A stretch of 32,000 bases of DNA, taken from NCBI GenBank assembly GCA_046497275.1, contig JAWOFX010000041.1:46279-78278 (forward strand), given 5' to 3'. Every line of letters starts with the position of its first letter. Within the stretch, counting starts at the first letter, position 1. The DNA comes from Promethearchaeia archaeon. GTDB lineage: Archaea; Asgardarchaeota; Lokiarchaeia; Sigyniarchaeales; SOKP01. The notes beneath the pieces are model-generated. The model had not been told where the DNA came from. It saw only the letters and a program-made list of their open reading frames with translations, and made no database searches. The position numbers and the translations under genes were made by a program. Below are positions 17,124 through 23,848 of this stretch, in pieces.

Positions 17124-17756
17124 ATGGAATTTGAACAATTGACAGAATTGATAATAGAACTTGAATGTGACGATATTCAAGAGGCTGTAAAAGAAGCTTT
17201 AGGGGAGGGAAAGGATCCTTTTGAAGTGCTTAATGCATTAACGGAAGGAATGGATGAGGTGGGAAGAAGATATGAGGAAAAGGAATATTATTTAACTGAG
17301 CTCGTTCTCGCAGGAGAAACGATGAAAGAAGCCTTCACAGTTTTACAACCCGCTTTAGCCAAAGCGGATCAAACTCAGGTTAAAACGAAAGTTATTCTTG
17401 CTACAGTGAAAGGAGATAACCATGATATTGGAAAAAATATATTAGCCTCTCTACTTTTAAGTTCTGGGTTTGAAATTCATGACCTTGGGATGGATGTGGG
17501 CGAAAAAGAAATTGTAGAAAAGGTTAAAGAAATAAATGCAGATATCGTGGCATTAAGCACTCTCCTCACAATGACAGTGGAACAAATAAAAGTTGTGGAT
17601 CAAGCTCTTAAAGATGCAGGCTTAAGAGATAATGTGAAGCTTATTGTTGGAGGCGCACCTCTCAATGAGGAATTAGCTAAAGAATTAGGCGCGGATGATT
17701 TTGCAGAGGACGCTGTTGAAGGAGTTAAACATATTAAAGCCTTAGCTGGAAATTAA
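17124..17756 (+). CDS. Cobalamin-binding (corrinoid) protein, MtaC/MtbC/MttC-like
   Basis: N-terminal B12 cap domain (GMDEVGRRYE...YLTELVLAGETM) and B12-binding motifs GDNHDIGKN (DxHxxG), DLGMDV, LSTLLT, VGGAP. Confidence 0.93.
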   Translation: MEFEQLTELIIELECDDIQEAVKEALGEGKDPFEVLNALTEGMDEVGRRYEEKEYYLTELVLAGETMKEAFTVLQPALAKADQTQVKTKVILATVKGDNHDIGKNILASLLLSSGFEIHDLGMDVGEKEIVEKVKEINADIVALSTLLTMTVEQIKVVDQALKDAGLRDNVKLIVGGAPLNEELAKELGADDFAEDAVEGVKHIKALAGN

Positions 17757-17760
17757 AACA

Positions 17761-17795
17761 TTCTTATTCTTTATTTTTCCTTTTTTTTGATTTTA
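17761..17795 (+). terminator. Oligo-T terminator after the corrinoid gene
   Basis: TTCTTTATTTTTCCTTTTTTTT directly after the stop. Suggests the tusA operon is transcribed separately. Confidence 0.5.
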
Positions 17796-17856
17796 ATATT
17801 TAGGCTTTTATAAATAATTTATATTTTAAAAGTAATATTTCGAAATACTTTATTAC

Positions 17857-17885
17857 TTAATGAAATTAATGTTCAATTTCATTAA
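17857..17885. promoter_or_regulatory. Perfect 11-7-11 inverted repeat TTAATGAAATT-aatgttc-AATTTCATTAA upstream of tusA
   Basis: Arms at 17857-17867 and 17875-17885 are exact reverse complements, about 80 nt upstream of the tusA ATG. Confidence 0.55.
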
Positions 17886-17964
17886 TTCATAATGAAAACC
17901 TTTTTCACTTCAGTTAACCATGAATAAAGTGATAAAAAAAGTATATATATAGGAGGTAAAAAAA

Positions 17965-18219
17965 ATGAGTGAAGAAAAAACAGAAGAACCGCTTTTTGAT
18001 GTTGAATTAGATACAAGAGGGTTGTTTTGTCCTGAACCTTTATTTGAAATAAGAAATCTCTCAGAGGAATTGGAAATTGGTCAATGTTTTAAAGTGATCG
18101 CGGATGATCCCGCTGCTGAGGAAGATTTTAAAAGGTGGGCAAAACGAACAGATACAGATATTATTGATTTCAGTAAAAAAGGAGACGACTTAATATTCTA
18201 TTTCAAGAAGAAAAAATAA
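17965..18219 (+). CDS. tusA: TusA/SirA-family sulfur carrier protein
   Basis: LDTRGLFCPEP (CPxP), ADDPAAEEDFKRWA. SD AGGAGGT upstream. Confidence 0.92.
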   Translation: MSEEKTEEPLFDVELDTRGLFCPEPLFEIRNLSEELEIGQCFKVIADDPAAEEDFKRWAKRTDTDIIDFSKKGDDLIFYFKKKK

Positions 18220-18233
18220 TGAGGTGAAAAAGC

Positions 18234-18593
18234 ATGGAAAAAAAACATCTTTTATATGTTCAAACCACAGATGCTTCTGAAAAGCAATATTCCCCATTAG
18301 TATTAGCCCAAATGGCTGTAGCAATGGATTTAAAGGCGACAGTATATTACTTGGGAACAGGGTTAAAAATCTTAAAACTGGGTGAGGCGGAGAAAATTAA
18401 ACTAGGAAATTTTCCAAGTGTGAGAGAGATGATTGATCAAACAAAAGAAGCAGGCGTGGAAATTTTAGTCTGTGAAGCATCAAAACGTATGTTAGGATGG
18501 GAGAGTGTTGAGTTAATCCCTAGAGTGAAAATAGTTGGGGCTGCGACCCTAAATGATTTGGTGTTGGAAGCAGATGGAACAATGTGGTTTTAA
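18234..18593 (+). CDS. DsrE/DsrF-family sulfur relay protein
   Basis: PLVLAQMAVAMD..ATVYYLGTG, GVEILVCEAS (conserved Cys), IVGAATL. SD GAGGTGA. Confidence 0.85.
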   Translation: MEKKHLLYVQTTDASEKQYSPLVLAQMAVAMDLKATVYYLGTGLKILKLGEAEKIKLGNFPSVREMIDQTKEAGVEILVCEASKRMLGWESVELIPRVKIVGAATLNDLVLEADGTMWF

Positions 18594-18629
18594 TTAATCA
18601 AAAATAAAAAACAAAATTGAGGTTAAAAA

Positions 18630-19823
18630 ATGGAAATATATTTGGATTATCAATCGGCAAAACCGGTTGATCCCAGAGTTATAGAAGAGATGATACCCTA
18701 TTTTACTGATAAATTCGGGAATCCAGCATCATTACACAACGTCGGTGATCAAGCTACTGAAGCTCTCAATCATTCTAGAAAACAGATTAAAGATTTCTTG
18801 AATGCCTCTGAGGATTCGAAAATAGTTTTTACATCCGGTGCGACAGAATCCAATAATCTTGCTTTAATTGGAACTGCTAGGAGATATAAAAATAAGGGAA
18901 ATCATATCATTATTTCAGAAATTGAGCATATTTCAATTCGAAATCTCGCGAAATATTTGGAGAGAGAAGGTTTTAAGGTTAGTAAAATCCCCGTAGACCA
19001 ATTTGGGGTCATAAAACTCGCTAAATTAAAGAATTTAATCACTGAAAATACTATTCTTATTTCTATTTCTACTGCGAGTAACGAAATCGGTTCAATCCAA
19101 CCATATGAAGAGATCAGTAAAATTGCTAAGGAGAATAATATAATTTTTCACACAGATGCAATTGCAAGTGAATCAGCATTACCGATTAAAGTGGAAGAAA
19201 CACCGTTTGATCTTATAACATTATCCTCAAATGATATATATGGTCCAAAAGGAGTAGGCGCGTTATATCTTCGAAAAGGTTTGCGCTTAAATCCCGTTTT
19301 AATTGGTGGTGGACAAGAATTTGGTATGAGATCTGGATCTCATAATTTGCCTGGAATAGTTGGATTTGGGAAAGCTGCGGAAATTATGAAGAGAGAAATG
19401 ATTTCTGAAGATAAAAGACTTTCAGAATATAGAGATTTATTAATTAAAGAGGTAATAGATAAAATTCCAAAATCCTATCTCAATGGGCATCCGACTAAAC
19501 GATTAGCTCATAATGCTCACTTTCGTTTCGATTATATTGAGGGAGAATCGTTAATTCTTGATTTAAAAGAAAATAATATAGCTGCAGCAACAGGCTCAGC
19601 GTGCTCATCCAAAACATTGGAACCATCACACACTTTAATTTCTTGTGGATTGTTACATGAAGAAGCACATGGAAGCTTATTATTTACATTAGGGAGATTT
19701 ACTCAAAAAGAAGAAATCAATAAAGTGATTGAAATATTACCTGGGATTGTAAAGAGATTGAGGTTATTATCTCCACTTACTCCTCCTGAAATTTTAAAAA
19801 AATATAATGAGGTGAAAAATTAA
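18630..19823 (+). CDS. iscS: IscS/NifS-family protein, non-canonical (PLP lysine replaced by Asp)
   Basis: YLDYQSAKP, GNPAS, FTSGATESNN, SEIEH, NEIGSIQP, HTDA, SSNDIYGPKGVGAL, GGGQE, TGSACSS. Confidence 0.93.
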   Translation: MEIYLDYQSAKPVDPRVIEEMIPYFTDKFGNPASLHNVGDQATEALNHSRKQIKDFLNASEDSKIVFTSGATESNNLALIGTARRYKNKGNHIIISEIEHISIRNLAKYLEREGFKVSKIPVDQFGVIKLAKLKNLITENTILISISTASNEIGSIQPYEEISKIAKENNIIFHTDAIASESALPIKVEETPFDLITLSSNDIYGPKGVGALYLRKGLRLNPVLIGGGQEFGMRSGSHNLPGIVGFGKAAEIMKREMISEDKRLSEYRDLLIKEVIDKIPKSYLNGHPTKRLAHNAHFRFDYIEGESLILDLKENNIAAATGSACSSKTLEPSHTLISCGLLHEEAHGSLLFTLGRFTQKEEINKVIEILPGIVKRLRLLSPLTPPEILKKYNEVKN

Positions 19824-19824
19824 A

Positions 19825-20616
19825 ATGAAATCAACCCAATACACTGAAAAAGTAATGGATCATTTTAGAAATCCTCGAAATGTCGGCATTATTGAAAATC
19901 CTGATGGATATGGAAAAGTTGGAAACCCTGTATGCGGAGATTTAATGGAAATGTTTATAAATGTGGAAAAAGATGAACAAGGAGAGGAATTTATTGAAGA
20001 CATTAAATTTAGAACCTTTGGATGTGGATCTGCTGTCGCAACCTCTTCAATGATAACTGAAATGGCTATGGGGATGAATCTTGATGAAGCTTATAAAATT
20101 ACAAGAAACGATGTAGCAGATGAGCTTGAGGGCTTACCCCCAATAAAAATGCATTGTTCGAATCTTGCAGCTGATGCATTAAAGGCAGCGATTGATAACT
20201 ATAGAAAAGGTACAGAGCCAGAAGTTCAAGTTCAAGCTTCATGTAAACCTATCGATATAAAAATCATTTTAGGTTTGGATGAGTTTCTAGGAAAAGGAGT
20301 TTATGAAAAACTTCCAGATTTGGAAGAATTAAAAGATAAACGCACTCTGATTGTTGATTCAAATGAAAAAGCATTAGAATTCGCTATTGAATTAACAGAT
20401 TATACGAATAGAGTTATTGTAACTACTAATAGAGATGAAATTCCTGGTTCAGAAGAGATGAGAAAAAAGTTAAAATTCTCCGATGTAAAAATATTGAGAC
20501 AATCAGAATTAATAGAAATTCAAGGTACTGACAGTGTTGAGAAGGTTCTAATCCATGATTTGGATGAGGATGAAAATTATGAACTATTTGTTGATTCTGT
20601 AATCATATTAAAATAA
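19825..20616 (+). CDS. iscU: IscU Fe-S scaffold fused to a C-terminal thioredoxin-reductase-like Rossmann domain
   Basis: YTEKVMDHFRNPRNVG, GNPVCGD, FGCGSAVATSS, KMHCSNLA (three Cys), followed by about 120 extra residues. Confidence 0.92.
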   Translation: MKSTQYTEKVMDHFRNPRNVGIIENPDGYGKVGNPVCGDLMEMFINVEKDEQGEEFIEDIKFRTFGCGSAVATSSMITEMAMGMNLDEAYKITRNDVADELEGLPPIKMHCSNLAADALKAAIDNYRKGTEPEVQVQASCKPIDIKIILGLDEFLGKGVYEKLPDLEELKDKRTLIVDSNEKALEFAIELTDYTNRVIVTTNRDEIPGSEEMRKKLKFSDVKILRQSELIEIQGTDSVEKVLIHDLDEDENYELFVDSVIILK

Positions 20617-20874
20617 TTTTTATTTTAATTCTTTATTTAGTTGGATTTTTAAAAATAGAATAAAATCTAAATCCTTTATTGGGATAAATAAGATCGCTTA
20701 GTTATAATAGAAGAAGTATTATATATATTATAATAAATCATAATCTAATCATTTTTTAATTTTTATAATTCTAATTCTTCAAGGTAATTTTTTTTTAATT
20801 TATAATAAGAAGAATTAAACATAATCTAGAAATACACACAATAACAAAATTAAAATAATTTTATTGTGAAAGCT

Positions 20875-21216
20875 ATGAAAAATAGTAAAGAATTATTACA
20901 AGAAATACAAGATACTATGAATTCTTTTGGAAAAATTAATCCCGAGGCTATGGAAGGATTTAAAAAATTCATGGATACCTCAAAACAAGATGGTGCGTTA
21001 TCAAAAAAGATGAAAGAAATAATCGGTGTTGCACTTTCGGTAAGCAAGCAATGCGAATGGTGTGTAGCACTCCACATTAGGCAGGCTTTACAAGCAGGTG
21101 CTACGAAGGAAGAGATCATGGAAGCATGTTTGGTTGCAGCAATGATGGGTGGAGGGCCCTCATTAATGTTCACGAAAAATGTATTGCAATCAATAGAAGA
21201 TTTTACTAAAAAATAA
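20875..21216 (+). CDS. Carboxymuconolactone decarboxylase/AhpD-like protein with CxxC
   Basis: GALSKKMKEIIGVALSV, CEWCVALH, AGATKEEIMEA, MGGGP. ATG 20875 preferred over GTG 20866 because the GTGA there acts as an SD. Confidence 0.88.
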   Translation: MKNSKELLQEIQDTMNSFGKINPEAMEGFKKFMDTSKQDGALSKKMKEIIGVALSVSKQCEWCVALHIRQALQAGATKEEIMEACLVAAMMGGGPSLMFTKNVLQSIEDFTKK

Positions 21217-21234
21217 ATAAAAGGTGTTTATAAA

Positions 21235-21627
21235 ATGGTAGATTTTTTAAAAAAAGAGTTGGATATGGATTTTGATAAAGCAGTTAAAAAAGTAGAAACT
21301 ATTGTTGAGGAAGAAGGATTTAGTCTGTTGTTGACGAAAGATCTTGATAAGATTTTCAAGAAAAATTTGGGAGTAGATTATTCAAGATATACTATGATTT
21401 TAGCCTGTGCTCCTGAATTCGCAAAAGGGGCTTTAGATGTTTCAAAGAATGTGGGTTTACTCTTTCCTTGTAGTTTTGTGGTATATGAAGACCAAGGGAA
21501 AGTTTTTGTCTCTCACATATCTATTATGAAAATAGCTCCTGAAATTGAGCTTGCTTCTGCAGATGAGATGCAGCCAGTGATTGATATGACGGGAGAAGCA
21601 GTCCATAAAGCATGGGACAGACTTTAA
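21235..21627 (+). CDS. DUF302 domain protein
   Basis: EEEGFSLL, ILACAP, GLLFPCSFVVYE. Confidence 0.82.
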   Translation: MVDFLKKELDMDFDKAVKKVETIVEEEGFSLLLTKDLDKIFKKNLGVDYSRYTMILACAPEFAKGALDVSKNVGLLFPCSFVVYEDQGKVFVSHISIMKIAPEIELASADEMQPVIDMTGEAVHKAWDRL

Positions 21628-22003: not shown

Positions 22004-22384
22004 TTAGCTAACTTTTTCTTCATTTCTCCAGAGTCCGTGAATGTTACAATAACTAAATGCAATAATAGTCCCTGGTTTTTCAGTTTTAAATCTCATTGTC
22101 GCCTCTGGTTCGCAATAGATGGTTGATGTATTAGGTCCTTCTACAGATTCTCCATGTGCGTTAAACTCACATTTACCTATTTCATAGGGATATTTCTCTC
22201 CATCCGGGTGGAATAGCGCCTTAATCCATCTAATATGATGTTCTGTGGTATTTGGATGACCTATCTCCTCTCCAACATGGAGTCTAACTGTGACCATATC
22301 TCCCTTCTTAGCCATATCAATAACGGGCACATGCTTTTCCTTCTTCCAGTCTGCCTCTTGATAAAGTTCGTTATAATCTACCAT
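22004..22384 (-). CDS. sor: Superoxide reductase (1Fe, neelaredoxin type)
   Basis: EKHVP, HPNTTEHHIRWI, CNIHGLW ligand motifs. Confidence 0.95.
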   Translation of the reverse strand: MVDYNELYQEADWKKEKHVPVIDMAKKGDMVTVRLHVGEEIGHPNTTEHHIRWIKALFHPDGEKYPYEIGKCEFNAHGESVEGPNTSTIYCEPEATMRFKTEKPGTIIAFSYCNIHGLWRNEEKVS

Positions 22385-22612: not shown

Positions 22613-23848
22613 TTATATTAGTTGAATACTAGAAGGAAATACCGCAGCTTTTGGAGGTTCCGGATATTCTGTACTTAATTCATTAATTAGATCATCCCAT
22701 TCGTTAAATAATTTAACATCTTTAGGGAAAAAATGATATAAATCTGGCTCACTAATGTTTGGTGAGAAGAATAATATCTTTCTTTTTTTAACAAATGCTT
22801 TCCATATAACACTATCTCCTAAATTATTATATAATTTGGCTCCAGTCTCAGCGATTAAACTATGATATCCTCTTCCTTCATAGGATGATGACATGAGTAC
22901 TATATGCCCTCTTCTATTTAACATTTTATTTGGCGCAGTCATCAACGCATTAAAACCTTTAACTGACTGATTTAATTCTGAGTCTTCGGGAAAGAGATTG
23001 AAAAAACAAATGTCATTATCTAAGGTAACTTCTGTGGAATAAGCTTCAGTCGCCAATTCCATCGCTTTTCGATGAGATTGTCTAAAATCTCCCGCTGTGA
23101 TCCCAGAGATATCGCCTTTTTCGGTTAAAATCAAATTGATTGAGAAATCTAGTCCGACTATATCTGCAATTTCTTCTATATCTTCACGAACTCCAGTCAT
23201 TCGACCGATGCCTGCTCCTATTCCCCTCATTGCAGCAGAATGATTCGCTTCTAATGTCCGGATTCCACATACTCCAGGGAGGACTATTTTTGCACCACCT
23301 CCAAATCCCGCTAATGGATGTGGAATTACACCCCCGACAGAAATTTTGAGGTCAGCATTACAATACGTTGTATTGACATCTATAGGAGTACCAATATTTG
23401 ATTCTCCAAAATTAGTGAGATTTTCATAAGGATGATGGTTTTCAATATTTAATGTATCTACAACATCTTTCCCTAATTTTAGAATTTGATCCTCCTTCAT
23501 CATTGGTTTATGGGCTCCTAAAGCAAAAAGAATGGTAATCTGTTCTCGTGAAATTCCACCTTGCTTAAGTTCCTCAAGAATATAAGGCATTAATAGGGAT
23601 ACAGGAGTGGTTCGTGTCATGTCATCAACAACAATTACAATTTTCTCCTTTCCTTTTGCTAATTCTGATAATTTAGGTGTTCCGATGGGATTTAAAATAC
23701 CTTGCGCAAGCTGATTCCCAGATAATACGGGTCCATTCCATTTATTCATTTTACAAACATTTACTTCCCAAGATTCTGGAAAAGAAATTTCAAGAAATTC
23801 GGGATCTCGCCATGCTGCCCATGGGATTCTAATTTTATTTTTTGACAT
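22613..23848 (-). CDS. LarA-family nickel-pincer-dependent 2-hydroxy acid racemase/epimerase
   Basis: VDDMTRTTP, ALGAH, ENHHP, GTPIDVN, PHPLAGFGGGAKIVLPG, ANH. Confidence 0.85.
   Translation of the reverse strand: MSKNKIRIPWAAWRDPEFLEISFPESWEVNVCKMNKWNGPVLSGNQLAQGILNPIGTPKLSELAKGKEKIVIVVDDMTRTTPVSLLMPYILEELKQGGISREQITILFALGAHKPMMKEDQILKLGKDVVDTLNIENHHPYENLTNFGESNIGTPIDVNTTYCNADLKISVGGVIPHPLAGFGGGAKIVLPGVCGIRTLEANHSAAMRGIGAGIGRMTGVREDIEEIADIVGLDFSINLILTEKGDISGITAGDFRQSHRKAMELATEAYSTEVTLDNDICFFNLFPEDSELNQSVKGFNALMTAPNKMLNRRGHIVLMSSSYEGRGYHSLIAETGAKLYNNLGDSVIWKAFVKKRKILFFSPNISEPDLYHFFPKDVKLFNEWDDLINELSTEYPEPPKAAVFPSSIQLI

What the first reader, a model, noticed from the sequence alone, without database searches (positions are those of the whole stretch)
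20263..20616. IscU fused to a degenerate thioredoxin-reductase NADPH-binding domain
The tail LGLDEFLGKGVYEKLPDLEELKDKRTLIVDSNEKALEFAIELTDYTNRVIVTTNRDEI...SELIEIQGTDSVEKVLIHD...ELFVDSVII aligns colinearly with the middle domain of TrxB, recalled as GEEEFLGRGVSYCATCD...K.V.VIGGGNTA.EEA..L....V.LIHRRD....IKGD..VE.V......L.VDGVFI. The CxxC has become EKLP and GGGxxA has become DSNEKA, so both catalysis and NADPH binding look lost. It may serve as a docking module for a flavoprotein or ferredoxin, or for TusA/DsrE. A linker Cys (QASCKP, residue 140) could be an extra ligand or persulfide site.
Basis: partly seen in the sequence, partly recalled or inferred. Interest (0 to 1): 0.68.

Follow-up and report, generated by a model that had tools for sequence, protein, structure and literature searches.

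The report
IscU scaffold with relic flavoreductase domain
This Asgard (Lokiarchaeial) iron-sulfur scaffold protein IscU carries the cofactor-less middle domain of a thioredoxin-reductase-like flavoenzyme that is still fused whole to IscU in some methane-cycling archaea. The leftover is strongly conserved and is predicted to clamp onto the partner protein IscS rather than do redox chemistry.

Summary
ORF 19825-20616 (263 aa) is a complete archaeal IscU (residues 5-128), a disordered 16-residue linker, and a 116-residue tail. The tail is a true homologue of the NAD(P)H domain of TrxR-like flavoproteins (profile against PDB E 1e-12; Foldseek TM 0.91).

The glycine loop reads DSNEKA (family D-[ST]-G-D-x-S), the HRR phosphate site is gone, and there is no FAD domain and no Cys.

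The fusion is not an assembly quirk. It occurs in 216 of 400 Asgard genomes sampled, always after tusA-(dsrE)-iscS, and that IscS always lacks its PLP lysine.

New here: 441-454-aa proteins of Methanoperedens, ANME-2 and Jordarchaeia fuse IscU to the complete CxxC-less flavoprotein in the same kind of operon. On a tree all IscU-fused NAD(P)H domains group together, and the truncated ones form a single clade. So the tail is a relic, and the CxxC was probably never there.

The relic is under strong purifying selection (dN/dS 0.06). A complex prediction places its invariant residues on IscS (0.64, best control 0.00).

I found no paper describing it. This scan has already reported the same architecture on other Asgard genomes.

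The parts
19825..20616 (+). iscU::tail gene, 263 codons plus stop. The start codon lies 1 nt after the iscS stop codon.
19837..20208 (+). IscU (NifU_N) scaffold domain, residues 5-128. It has Cys37, Cys67, His110-Cys111 and LPPIK 104-108.
   Evidence: Pfam PF01592 E 2e-45. 70-73% identical to Methanothrix IscU 7c8m and 63% to A. fulgidus IscU 4eb5_C. Codons checked.
20218..20265 (+). Flexible linker, residues 132-147 (PEVQVQASCKPIDIKI), with Cys140 at 20242-20244.
   Evidence: pLDDT under 50 for residues 132-145. A linker Cys is present in 80 of 80 loci and absent in some divergent members.
20266..20613 (+). Relic NAD(P)H-binding domain of a TrxR-like flavoprotein, residues 148-263. It has no FAD domain on either side and no Cys; the net charge of the family's tails is about -11.
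20356..20373 (+). Former dinucleotide-binding glycine loop, now DSNEKA. The family consensus is D-[ST]-G-D-[EDK]-S; full fusions have GGGNSA, GNGEQA or G[HNR]GYNA.
20425..20448 (+). Former 2'-phosphate site after strand beta-2, now TNRDEIPG (HRRxxFRA in TrxR, AHRKDELRA in the Methanoperedens full fusion). Thr201, Pro207 and Gly208 are invariant.
20554..20574 (+). Conserved acidic beta-hairpin HDLDEDE, residues 244-250. An xEDEx hairpin is shared with the full IscU::flavoprotein fusions and was absent from the two stand-alone relatives inspected. It is not part of the predicted IscS interface.
18630..19823 (+). iscS of the A. fulgidus IscS2 type. The PLP lysine is replaced by Asp202 (SSNDIYGPKG, 19224-19253) and the loop Cys325 is kept. 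It is the predicted docking partner of the tail (residues 121-124, 131-136, 283, 337-345, 385, 387).
17965..18219 (+). tusA. It lies upstream of iscS in every related locus whose upstream flank was recovered.
   Evidence: Pfam PF01206; synteny
18234..18593 (+). dsrE-like gene, present in roughly a third of the related loci.
   Evidence: Pfam PF02635; synteny

Best explanation
The tail is the surviving NAD(P)H-binding domain of a TrxR-like, CxxC-less (ferredoxin-NADP-reductase-type) flavoprotein that was once fused whole to the archaeal IscU scaffold. In the Lokiarchaeia/Thorarchaeia-type lineage both halves of the FAD domain were deleted: the N-terminal half became a short linker and the C-terminal half was cut off by a stop codon. 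The nucleotide-binding motifs then eroded. The domain therefore no longer carries flavin or oxidises NAD(P)H (inferred from sequence). It has been kept under strong purifying selection as a non-catalytic protein-binding module. The most likely role is to clamp the tethered scaffold onto its partner, the lysine-less (desulfurase-dead) IscS. The predicted site is on the flank next to the IscU site and the Cys-loop exit (predicted, not shown). In that pose the former nucleotide crevice and a conserved acidic hairpin stay exposed as a possible second surface. The system it serves is a TusA-(DsrE)-IscS(Lys to Asp)-IscU module that must take sulfur from sulfide or a persulfide relay, not from cysteine. 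That last point follows from published work on A. fulgidus IscS, as cited in PMC7585200.
For: Homology and fold:
- Pfam PF00070 scores above its cut-off.
- The tail profile hits PDB 2zbw at E 1e-12.
- Foldseek gives TM 0.87-0.91 and rmsd 1.5-2.0 A to TrxR/FNR NAD(P)H domains.

Origin:
- An ESM-Atlas shape search found 448-aa archaeal proteins with NifU_N plus a complete Pyr_redox_2.
- P0169 is IscU (6-127) plus a whole flavoprotein (138-426) with GGGPAG and GGGNSA motifs and no CxxC.
- More than 100 such fusions occur in Methanoperedens, ANME-2, Methanosarcinales and Jordarchaeaceae.
- P0001 aligns with the Jord-type P0387 at 72% over the IscU domain and 42% over the tail, with P0387 residues 123-257 (linker plus FAD-N) and 375-448 (FAD-C) missing from P0001.
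- In a maximum-likelihood tree of 66 NAD(P)H domains, all IscU-fused ones form one group (support 94/82) apart from 27 stand-alone relatives. The truncated ones form one clade (100/99) on a long stem of 0.95.
- The operon is shared: ANME-2 has TusA-DsrE-IscS-IscU::flavoprotein, and every IscS reads SSND.

Loss of catalysis:
- There is no FAD domain and no Cys in the tail.
- The glycine loop is D-[ST]-G-D-x-S in 76 of 80 loci.
- HRR is replaced by T-[SN]-x.

Selection and spread:
- Median dN/dS is 0.064 for the tail and 0.038 for the IscU domain over 272 pairs.
- The tail is in frame with IscU, without stops, in 80 of 80 loci.
- It is present in 216 of 400 Asgard genomes sampled.

Docking on IscS:
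- Complex prediction was run with an IscS dimer plus the tail. Score 0.64 (runs 0.64, 0.62, 0.65); best of 3 controls 0.00.
- That mark was reached by 58 of 80 solved complexes and 2 of 110 mismatched pairs.
- The runs agree in at least 95% of contacts, and the partner's pLDDT is at least 87.
- As far as I know no like complex has been solved, so the pass is not from memory.
- The tail residues in the interface include the family's invariant polar and aromatic residues: R173, T194, R196, K217, K222, E239, Y252, L254, F255, D257.
Against: - Binding to IscS is a model's confidence, not a measurement.
- IscU was not in the job. Part of the predicted footprint (window IscS residues 342-345, 385, 387, equivalent to E. 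coli about 345-348, 388, 390) touches elements that bind IscU in E. coli IscS: the alpha-10 turn with Glu347 and helix alpha-12, residues 379-391 (PMC2854127). The pose could therefore partly reflect an empty IscU site.
- The IscS residues in the footprint are no more conserved than the rest of IscS (0.81 against 0.80). They are mostly the same in IscS proteins whose IscU has no tail, so there is no co-evolution signal.
- Several interface residues (R173, E239, D257) are conserved in the whole TrxR family and may be structural.
- The support for 'all fused domains are one group' (94/82) is just under the usual threshold, the order inside that group is unresolved, and no root independent of that grouping was used for either tree.
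- The IscU-domain tree does not place full and truncated fusions together.
- Loss of nucleotide binding is inferred from motifs only.
Confidence: 0.55

Rival explanations
1. The former nucleotide crevice has been remodelled into a new small-ligand or metal site, for example Fe(II) held by Asp178, Asp/Glu181 and the acidic hairpin. The tail would then be a sensor or an iron-entry, frataxin-like module rather than a plain clamp. This can coexist with IscS docking.
For: The loops at the C-terminal edge of the sheet are invariant or nearly so (D178, G180, S183; T201, P207, G208). So is the hairpin (H244, D245, D247, E248, D249, E250). None of these lie in the predicted IscS interface, so something else must be conserving them. 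The tail is very acidic (median net charge -11, pI 4.6). The minimal archaeal system is described as having no carrier protein or chaperones (review PMC13066941).
Against: No ligand was tested and no known metal-binding motif is present. An acidic hairpin is also present in the full flavoprotein fusions, where an iron-donor role is not obvious. In this window's own protein the middle Gly is Asn (DSNEKA), so the loop tolerates change.
Confidence: 0.15
2. The tail docks a partner other than IscS: the operon's TusA or DsrE, a ferredoxin or flavodoxin, or a free flavoprotein. It would bring sulfur or electrons to the scaffold.
For: tusA precedes iscS in every related locus whose upstream flank was recovered. 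Methanoperedens operons with the full fusion end with a flavodoxin gene. A second conserved surface of the tail is left free in the IscS model.
Against: The TusA-DsrE-IscS-IscU operon also exists with plain, tail-less IscU in Methanosarcinales, Methanomassiliicoccales and a Hodarchaeota MAG, so TusA and DsrE do not need the tail. TusA (pI 4.5) and ferredoxins are acidic like the tail (general knowledge for ferredoxins). No binding test was run for these partners.
Confidence: 0.15
3. The tail is a self-association module that pairs two IscU domains, favouring fusion of two [2Fe-2S] clusters into one [4Fe-4S].
For: Archaeal holo-IscU dimerises with two clusters positioned for fusion (Methanothrix structure, as summarised in PMC13066941). 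An excised domain exposes the two hinge strands (148-150, 258-262), which could pair between molecules (inference).
Against: In TrxR-family dimers the interface is made by the FAD domains, not the NAD(P)H domains (general knowledge). The invariant residues are accounted for by the IscS model.
Confidence: 0.08
4. The tail is a decaying, functionless remnant.
For: It has lost every catalytic motif and its cofactor domain.
Against: dN/dS is 0.064. The frame is intact in 80 of 80 loci. Identity is 57-74% across the 80 species-level loci recovered. The model has pLDDT 93.7. Two separate deletions removed the FAD halves while sparing exactly this domain.
Confidence: 0.02

Closest known systems
Archaeoglobus fulgidus IscS2-IscU pair, (IscS-IscU)2 complex (PDB 4eb5, 4eb7, 4hvk; D199K variant 4r5f); the 'minimal' MIS-type system (MisS/MisU)
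   Same: The window IscS is closest to 4eb5_A (E 1e-132) and shares SSNDIYGPKG, with Asp in place of the PLP lysine, and the loop Cys. The IscU domain is 63% identical to 4eb5_C and 70-73% to Methanothrix IscU 7c8m. Pfam scans of the genes flanking the operon (17124-21627) found no chaperone, ferredoxin or A-type carrier genes.
   Different: The A. fulgidus and Methanothrix IscU chains in the PDB are 112-138 residues and have no tail. The Asgard IscU adds a 116-residue pseudo-reductase domain, and the operon is preceded by tusA (and often dsrE).
IscU::TrxR-like flavoprotein full fusions of Methanoperedens, ANME-2, Methanosarcinales and Jordarchaeaceae (441-454 aa; annotated 'NifU' or 'thioredoxin reductase'; I found no characterisation)
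   Same: Same N-terminal IscU, same NAD(P)H-domain lineage (one group in the tree), the same kind of operon with lysine-less IscS and TusA/DsrE, a shared xEDEx hairpin and no CxxC.
   Different: They keep both halves of the FAD domain (GGGPAG) and a GxGxxA loop, so they are plausibly active reductases. The window protein lacks the FAD domain and the loop.
Homodimeric TrxR-like ferredoxin/flavodoxin-NADP+ oxidoreductases (Thermus 2zbw, Bacillus subtilis YumC 3lzw, YcgT 5xhu) and thioredoxin reductases (3f8d, 2q7v)
   Same: The NAD(P)H-domain fold and a colinear sequence from G-x-x-E-F-x-G-K-G-V to V-D-x-V.
   Different: There is no FAD domain, no GxGxxA, no HRR and no CxxC, and the domain is fused to IscU. 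It is a homologous domain, not a member of the enzyme family.
Three-domain NifU (IscU-like N domain, central [2Fe-2S] ferredoxin-like redox domain, C-terminal Nfu domain)
   Same: A precedent for an IscU-type scaffold carrying an extra domain of redox origin. The database name given to this protein is 'NifU'.
   Different: Pfam finds no ferredoxin-like or Nfu domain here, and the tail has no Cys to bind a cluster.

Membership tests
IscU / NifU_N scaffold (PF01592) | Profile match over the whole domain | tested here: met
   E 2e-45, residues 5-128 on profile positions 1-122 of 127. Foldseek to IscU structures gives TM by target 0.83-0.92.
IscU / NifU_N scaffold (PF01592) | Three cluster-ligand Cys plus Asp and His, and the LPPxK motif | tested here: met
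   Cys37 within the GNPVCGD motif (which also carries Asp39), Cys67, His110-Cys111 and LPPIK 104-108 are all present and nearly invariant in the family.
Lysine-less IscS-IscU pair (A. fulgidus IscS2 type, MIS system) | The partner IscS has Asp or Glu in place of the PLP Schiff-base Lys but keeps the loop Cys | tested here: met
   SSNDIYGPKG and TGSACSS in the window. SSN[DE]IYGPxG in 72 of 72 orthologues. Aligned to 4eb5_A at E 1e-132.
Lysine-less IscS-IscU pair (A. fulgidus IscS2 type, MIS system) | No cysteine desulfurase activity; the cluster is built from sulfide with the IscS Cys as a ligand | not testable with these tools
   Biochemical property; known for A. fulgidus only (as cited in PMC7585200).
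Thioredoxin reductase / pyridine nucleotide-disulfide oxidoreductase (PF07992) | FAD-binding domain with GxGxxG | tested here: not met
   PF07992 scores only 11-14 bits, below the 26.1 cut-off. The protein ends at the last strand of the NAD(P)H domain, and residues 123-257 and 375-448 of the full fusion P0387 have no counterpart.
Thioredoxin reductase / pyridine nucleotide-disulfide oxidoreductase (PF07992) | NAD(P)H-binding GxGxxA loop and HRR 2'-phosphate site | tested here: not met
   DSNEKA and TNRDEIPG in the window; D-[ST]-G-D-x-S in the family.
Thioredoxin reductase / pyridine nucleotide-disulfide oxidoreductase (PF07992) | Redox-active CxxC in the NAD(P)H domain | tested here: not met
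   There is no Cys in residues 148-263. It is also absent from the full fusions.
Thioredoxin reductase / pyridine nucleotide-disulfide oxidoreductase (PF07992) | Fold of the NAD(P)H domain | tested here: met
   TM 0.87-0.91 and rmsd 1.5-2.0 A to 3f8d, 2zbw, 3lzw and 2q7v.
Three-domain NifU | Central ferredoxin-like [2Fe-2S] domain and C-terminal Nfu domain | tested here: not met
   No such Pfam match at E up to 1.

The most novel reading that the evidence does not exclude
The Asgard minimal Fe-S machine has turned a dead reductase domain into a two-faced adaptor. One face clamps IscU onto a catalytically dead IscS. The other face (the remodelled nucleotide crevice plus the invariant HDxDEDE hairpin, perhaps with the linker Cys) takes over a job done elsewhere by separate accessory proteins: frataxin-like iron entry or regulation, or recruitment of the TusA/DsrE persulfide relay. 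That would make this a self-contained, cysteine-independent assembly system in the closest archaeal relatives of eukaryotes.
Probability: 0.2. Interest if true: 0.75.

Novelty: new variant of a known kind. Interest (0 to 1): 0.55.

Why it matters
How 'minimal' archaeal IscS-IscU systems work is open. Where their sulfur and electrons come from is unclear, and so is what a desulfurase-dead IscS does. A recent review calls MIS the least studied Fe-S system (PMC13066941).

This locus shows a three-state series in otherwise similar operons: plain IscU, IscU fused to a whole flavin reductase, and IscU with only the reductase's dead middle domain.

- The whole fusion points to a built-in electron donor.
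- The relic is a clean natural example of an enzyme domain recycled as a binding module (a pseudoenzyme). It gives concrete, mutable residues for testing scaffold-IscS docking.
- It is also a lineage marker. It is common in Lokiarchaeia and one other large Asgard family and absent from many other Asgard families. A 2026 study reports Asgard associations for eukaryotic ISCU and NFS1 (PMC12872458), so Asgard Fe-S assembly has wider interest.

It is not categorically new. The parts and the system type are known, and the function is still only predicted.

Tried and rejected
1. A split TrxR, with a separate FAD-domain-only partner for the tail. A PF07992 scan of the window's own genome gave 40 matches, mostly ordinary or HdrA-like large flavoproteins. 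Nothing pointed to a partner and I did not pursue it. The only other tail-like match in the genome is an ordinary 327-aa TrxR-like ORF at 25% identity.
2. A 744-aa open frame in G319 that looked like a TusA-IscS-IscU triple fusion. It is just four separate genes, tusA, dsrE, iscS and iscU::tail.
3. Stand-alone 145-aa 'NAD-binding proteins' (P0044, P0076; G230 frame). The G230 gene runs off its contig end. These are probably truncated calls, not a free domain.
4. Short representative hits P0154, P0146, P0153 and P0164. They look like chimeric or fragmentary calls.
5. Co-variation between IscS footprint residues and presence of the tail. Footprint conservation is 0.81 against 0.80 overall, and residues are mostly the same in four IscS proteins with tail-less partners. 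Only positions 136 and 342 look more hydrophobic with the tail, and the sample is too small.
6. Methanosarcina acetivorans IscU1 (MA0807, listed as 24.2 kDa in PMC7585200) as a possible second truncated form. Unresolved.
7. Sister group of the truncated clade. It is unresolved in the NAD(P)H-domain tree and in the IscU-domain tree.
8. Literature. Searches on IscU with Asgard, MisU/MisS, IscU with thioredoxin reductase, fusion and ANME, and IscU with domain architecture found no description of either fusion.
9. Intramolecular packing of the tail on the IscU domain. The full-length model gives two confident domains and a disordered linker, pTM 0.50, so no fixed packing is predicted.
Full report
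**What is there.** Window 19825-20616 (+) is a single 263-codon ORF. Its ATG lies one base after the stop of the upstream class-V aminotransferase gene. Pfam finds NifU_N over residues 5-128 (E 2e-45). In the tail it finds Pyr_redox PF00070 (25.5 bits, cut-off 22, E 1.9e-5 for the tail alone). That match starts at profile position 11 and so skips the glycine-rich loop.

**Homology and fold.**
- A profile of 26 tails hits PDB NAD(P)H domains of TrxR-like proteins: Thermus 2zbw at E 1e-12 over residues 131-247, then the TrxR-type ferredoxin-NADP reductases 5xhu and 3lzw, then true thioredoxin reductases.
- AlphaFold models the full protein as two confident domains joined by a disordered linker (residues 132-145 below pLDDT 50; pTM 0.50).
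- The tail alone is modelled at pLDDT 93.7. It superposes on TrxR/FNR NAD(P)H domains at TM 0.87-0.91 and rmsd 1.5-2.0 A.
- The N-domain is 70-73% identical to Methanothrix IscU (7c8m) and 63% to A. fulgidus IscU.

**What is lost.**
- Where TrxR-type enzymes have GGGxxA, this protein has DSNEKA. The family has D-[ST]-G-D-[EDK]-S in 76 of 80 loci.
- Where they have HRRxxFRA, it has TNRDEIPG, with Thr201, Pro207 and Gly208 invariant.
- The tail has no Cys at all and one His. The tails are strongly acidic: pI 4.5 for this window's tail, median pI 4.6 and median net charge -11 across the 26 aligned tails.
- There is no FAD domain on either side.

Flavin chemistry and disulfide chemistry are thus excluded by the sequence. 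Loss of NAD(P)H binding is a strong inference from the motifs, not a measurement.

**Distribution and context.**
- A word-indexed search restricted to the tail found 364 proteins. The 120 listed share 58-96% identity in the tail, and nearly all are 247-270 aa with NifU_N. Those that carry names are Lokiarchaeota, Promethearchaeota or Thorarchaeota MAGs.
- A pattern scan of one genome per prokaryote species gave 130 relatives. The best 80 are all Asgard-labelled MAGs, except several labelled only 'uncultured archaeon' and one labelled as a Nanopelagicaceae bacterium.
- Within the Asgard phylum, 216 of 400 genomes sampled have the tail: 114 of 134 in the window's own family, most members of another large family, and none in many other families.
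- In all 80 loci the IscU and tail parts are in one frame without stops.
- The gene order tusA-(dsrE)-iscS-iscU::tail holds wherever the flank is present. A corrinoid-protein gene lies upstream in most loci.
- All 72 orthologous IscS proteins read SSN[DE]IYGPxG. The PLP lysine is replaced, as in A. fulgidus IscS2, and the loop Cys is kept.
- The window IscS matches 4eb5_A at E 1e-132. Published work on A. fulgidus IscS, as cited in PMC7585200, shows that this variant has no desulfurase activity and lends its Cys as a cluster ligand.

**Where the tail came from.**
- A shape search of the ESM Atlas with the tail model returned the protein's own family. It also returned a cluster of 448-aa archaeal proteins carrying NifU_N and a complete Pyr_redox_2.
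- One such protein was already among my exhaustive-search hits. P0169 (443 aa) is IscU (6-127) plus a whole TrxR-like flavoprotein (138-426). It has GGGPAG for FAD, GGGNSA and AHRKDELRA for NADPH, and GVYYFV in place of the CxxC.
- More than 100 homologues of 441-454 aa exist in Candidatus Methanoperedens, ANME-2 (Methanocomedens), Methanosarcinales and a Jordarchaeaceae (Asgard) MAG. None of the 15 inspected has a CxxC after residue 130.
- The window protein aligns with the Jord-type P0387 at 72% over IscU and 42% over the tail. P0387 residues 123-257 (its linker and the N-terminal FAD half) and 375-448 (the C-terminal FAD half) have no counterpart. So the window protein ends exactly at the last strand of the NAD(P)H domain.
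- The glycine loop shows a graded series. It reads GGGNSA in Methanoperedens, GNGEQA in the Jord type, G[HNR]GYNA in ANME-2 and D[ST]GDxS in the Loki/Thor type.
- In a maximum-likelihood tree of 66 NAD(P)H domains (116 columns), all IscU-fused domains, whole or truncated, form one group (support 94/82). The 27 stand-alone relatives fall outside it.
- The 23 truncated domains form one clade (100/99) on a long stem of 0.95. This fits one truncation followed by a burst of change. The order within the fused group is unresolved.
- The operons match. ANME-2 has TusA-DsrE-IscS-IscU::flavoprotein. Methanoperedens has DsrE-IscS-IscU::flavoprotein-flavodoxin. The Jord-type contigs carry TusA and IscS about 3 kb upstream. 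Every IscS reads SSND.
- The same operon also exists with plain IscU (123-145 aa) in Methanosarcinales, Methanomassiliicoccales, Bathyarchaeia and a Hodarchaeota MAG, again with Asp in place of the lysine.
- In an IscU-domain tree the truncated proteins are again one clade (SH-aLRT 96). The 138-aa plain IscUs of ANME-2/Methanosarcinales nest inside the ANME-2 full-fusion clade (100). The flavoprotein part has therefore been lost entirely there.

The module is evolutionarily labile. What is special about the Loki/Thor form is that exactly the middle domain was kept.

**Is the relic functional?** Pairwise Nei-Gojobori estimates over 272 pairs (dS 0.05-1.2) give a median dN/dS of 0.064 for the tail and 0.038 for the IscU domain. 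That rules out a decaying remnant.

**What it may do.**
- The input was an IscS dimer (alignment A5, 29 rows) plus the tail (A4, 36 rows).
- The score was 0.64 (runs 0.64, 0.62, 0.65) and the best of three controls scored 0.00.
- That mark was reached by 58 of 80 solved complexes and 2 of 110 mismatched pairs in the tool's calibration. The calibration holds only roughly here, because my own alignments and three chains were used.
- The runs agree in at least 95% of contacts, and the partner's pLDDT is at least 87. The model supports binding; it does not show it.
- I know of no solved complex of this kind, so memory of a structure is unlikely to explain the pass.
- On the tail, the contacts (P0001 numbering) are 171, 173, 194-196, 198, 217-218, 222, 224, 234-236, 239-240 and 252-257. 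These include most of the family's invariant polar and aromatic residues: R173, T194, R196, K217, K222, E239, Y252, L254, F255 and D257.
- On IscS, one protomer contributes 121-124, 131-136, 283, 337-345, 385 and 387.
- I mapped these to E. coli IscS using the offsets. Residues after the Cys loop correspond to E. coli number minus 3. Residues 121-124 correspond to E. coli 125-128; this second mapping rests partly on my recollection of the E. coli sequence.
- The footprint starts at the R340-equivalent position, which matters for CyaY, IscX and ThiI binding in E. coli. It runs to the alpha-10 turn and helix alpha-12, which contact IscU (PMC2854127).
- The predicted site is thus next to the IscU site and overlaps it at the margins. 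That is geometrically sensible for a domain tethered by a 16-residue linker. It also means the pose could shift once IscU is present.
- A check for co-variation of the IscS footprint with presence of the tail was negative or underpowered.
- By my reading of the topology, the former nucleotide crevice (D178-S183, T201-G208) and the invariant acidic hairpin HDxDEDE (244-250) are not in the interface. They face away from IscS, so a second conserved surface remains unexplained.
- An xEDEx hairpin is shared by the full fusions. It was missing from the two stand-alone relatives printed.

**Linker cysteine.** Cys140 is present in all 80 loci. It is missing in some divergent truncated members and from the linkers of the full fusions inspected, and it lies in the disordered linker. 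A role as a fourth ligand or a persulfide carrier is possible but untested.

**Verdict.** Two corrections apply.
- The domain is the remnant of a complete, CxxC-less flavoprotein fused to IscU, so the CxxC was probably never there.
- The only partner with in-silico support is IscS.

I found no paper describing either fusion. Databases call them NifU or thioredoxin reductase.

After I had reached this reading, I saw that this scan has already reported the same architecture, with the same interpretation, on several other Asgard genomes, and the full fusion in Methanoperedens. Those notes are not independent evidence; I re-derived each point here.

I rate it a new variant of a known kind, of moderate interest. 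It is a well-supported pseudoenzyme domain in an understudied Fe-S system, with a predicted but unproven mechanism.

Noticed in passing
window 18630-19823 (Asp202 codon within 19224-19253): The IscS next door has Asp in place of the PLP Schiff-base lysine (SSNDIYGPKG) and keeps the loop Cys325. The same holds in 72 of 72 orthologues and in IscS proteins paired with plain or fully fused IscU in other archaea. The link TusA/DsrE + lysine-less IscS looks general.
   Followed up: yes
window 17124-17756: A corrinoid (B12-binding, MtaC-like) protein gene sits about 200 nt upstream of tusA. It keeps that position in most of the 80 related loci, which is an unexplained conserved neighbourhood.
   Followed up: partly
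window 20866-21216 and 21235-21627: Downstream genes: a CMD/AhpD-like protein with a CxxC (CEWC) and a DUF302 protein. Both reappear downstream only in the closest relatives (L001, L003), so they are probably not part of the conserved module.
   Followed up: partly
window 22004-22384 (-) and 22613-23848 (-): A 126-aa ORF that looks to me like a superoxide reductase (neelaredoxin type), and a 411-aa ORF that looks like LarA/DUF2088. Neither was scanned against Pfam here. tblastn finds close copies of the 126-aa ORF (80-92% identity) near the operon only in L001, L003 and L009; in many other loci there are only distant matches of 31-45% identity.
   Followed up: no
L092:3001-3417 (and P0418, P0425, P0428): Plain 138-aa IscUs of ANME-2/Methanosarcinales nest inside the clade of ANME-2 IscU::flavoprotein full fusions and sit in the same TusA-DsrE-IscS operon. 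The flavoprotein part has been lost completely in some lineages.
   Followed up: partly
L088/L089:6592-7023: In Methanoperedens the full IscU::flavoprotein gene is followed by a flavodoxin gene. In L089 a small rubredoxin-like gene sits between dsrE and iscS. These are possible electron partners of the fused reductase.
   Followed up: no
paper PMC7585200, Table 1: Methanosarcina acetivorans IscU1 (MA0807) is listed at 24.2 kDa against 13.9 kDa for IscU2, and it pairs with the lysine-less IscS1. The extra ~10 kDa is not commented on in the paper. It could be another truncated form; I could not retrieve the sequence.
   Followed up: partly
L074 (DATKTW010000107.1): A contig assigned to a 'Candidatus Nanopelagicaceae bacterium' MAG carries the Asgard-type corrinoid-tusA-iscS-iscU::tail locus at 59% tail identity. 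This is probably a mis-binned contig. One ESM-Atlas cluster of the fusion is likewise labelled mostly bacterial (Thermodesulfobacteriota).
   Followed up: no
G230:C230:4411-4782 (L096); P0044, P0076: 145-aa 'NAD-binding protein' entries consisting of the tail alone begin inside the IscU C-terminal helix. In G230 the gene runs off the contig end, so these are truncated gene calls, not free domains.
   Followed up: partly
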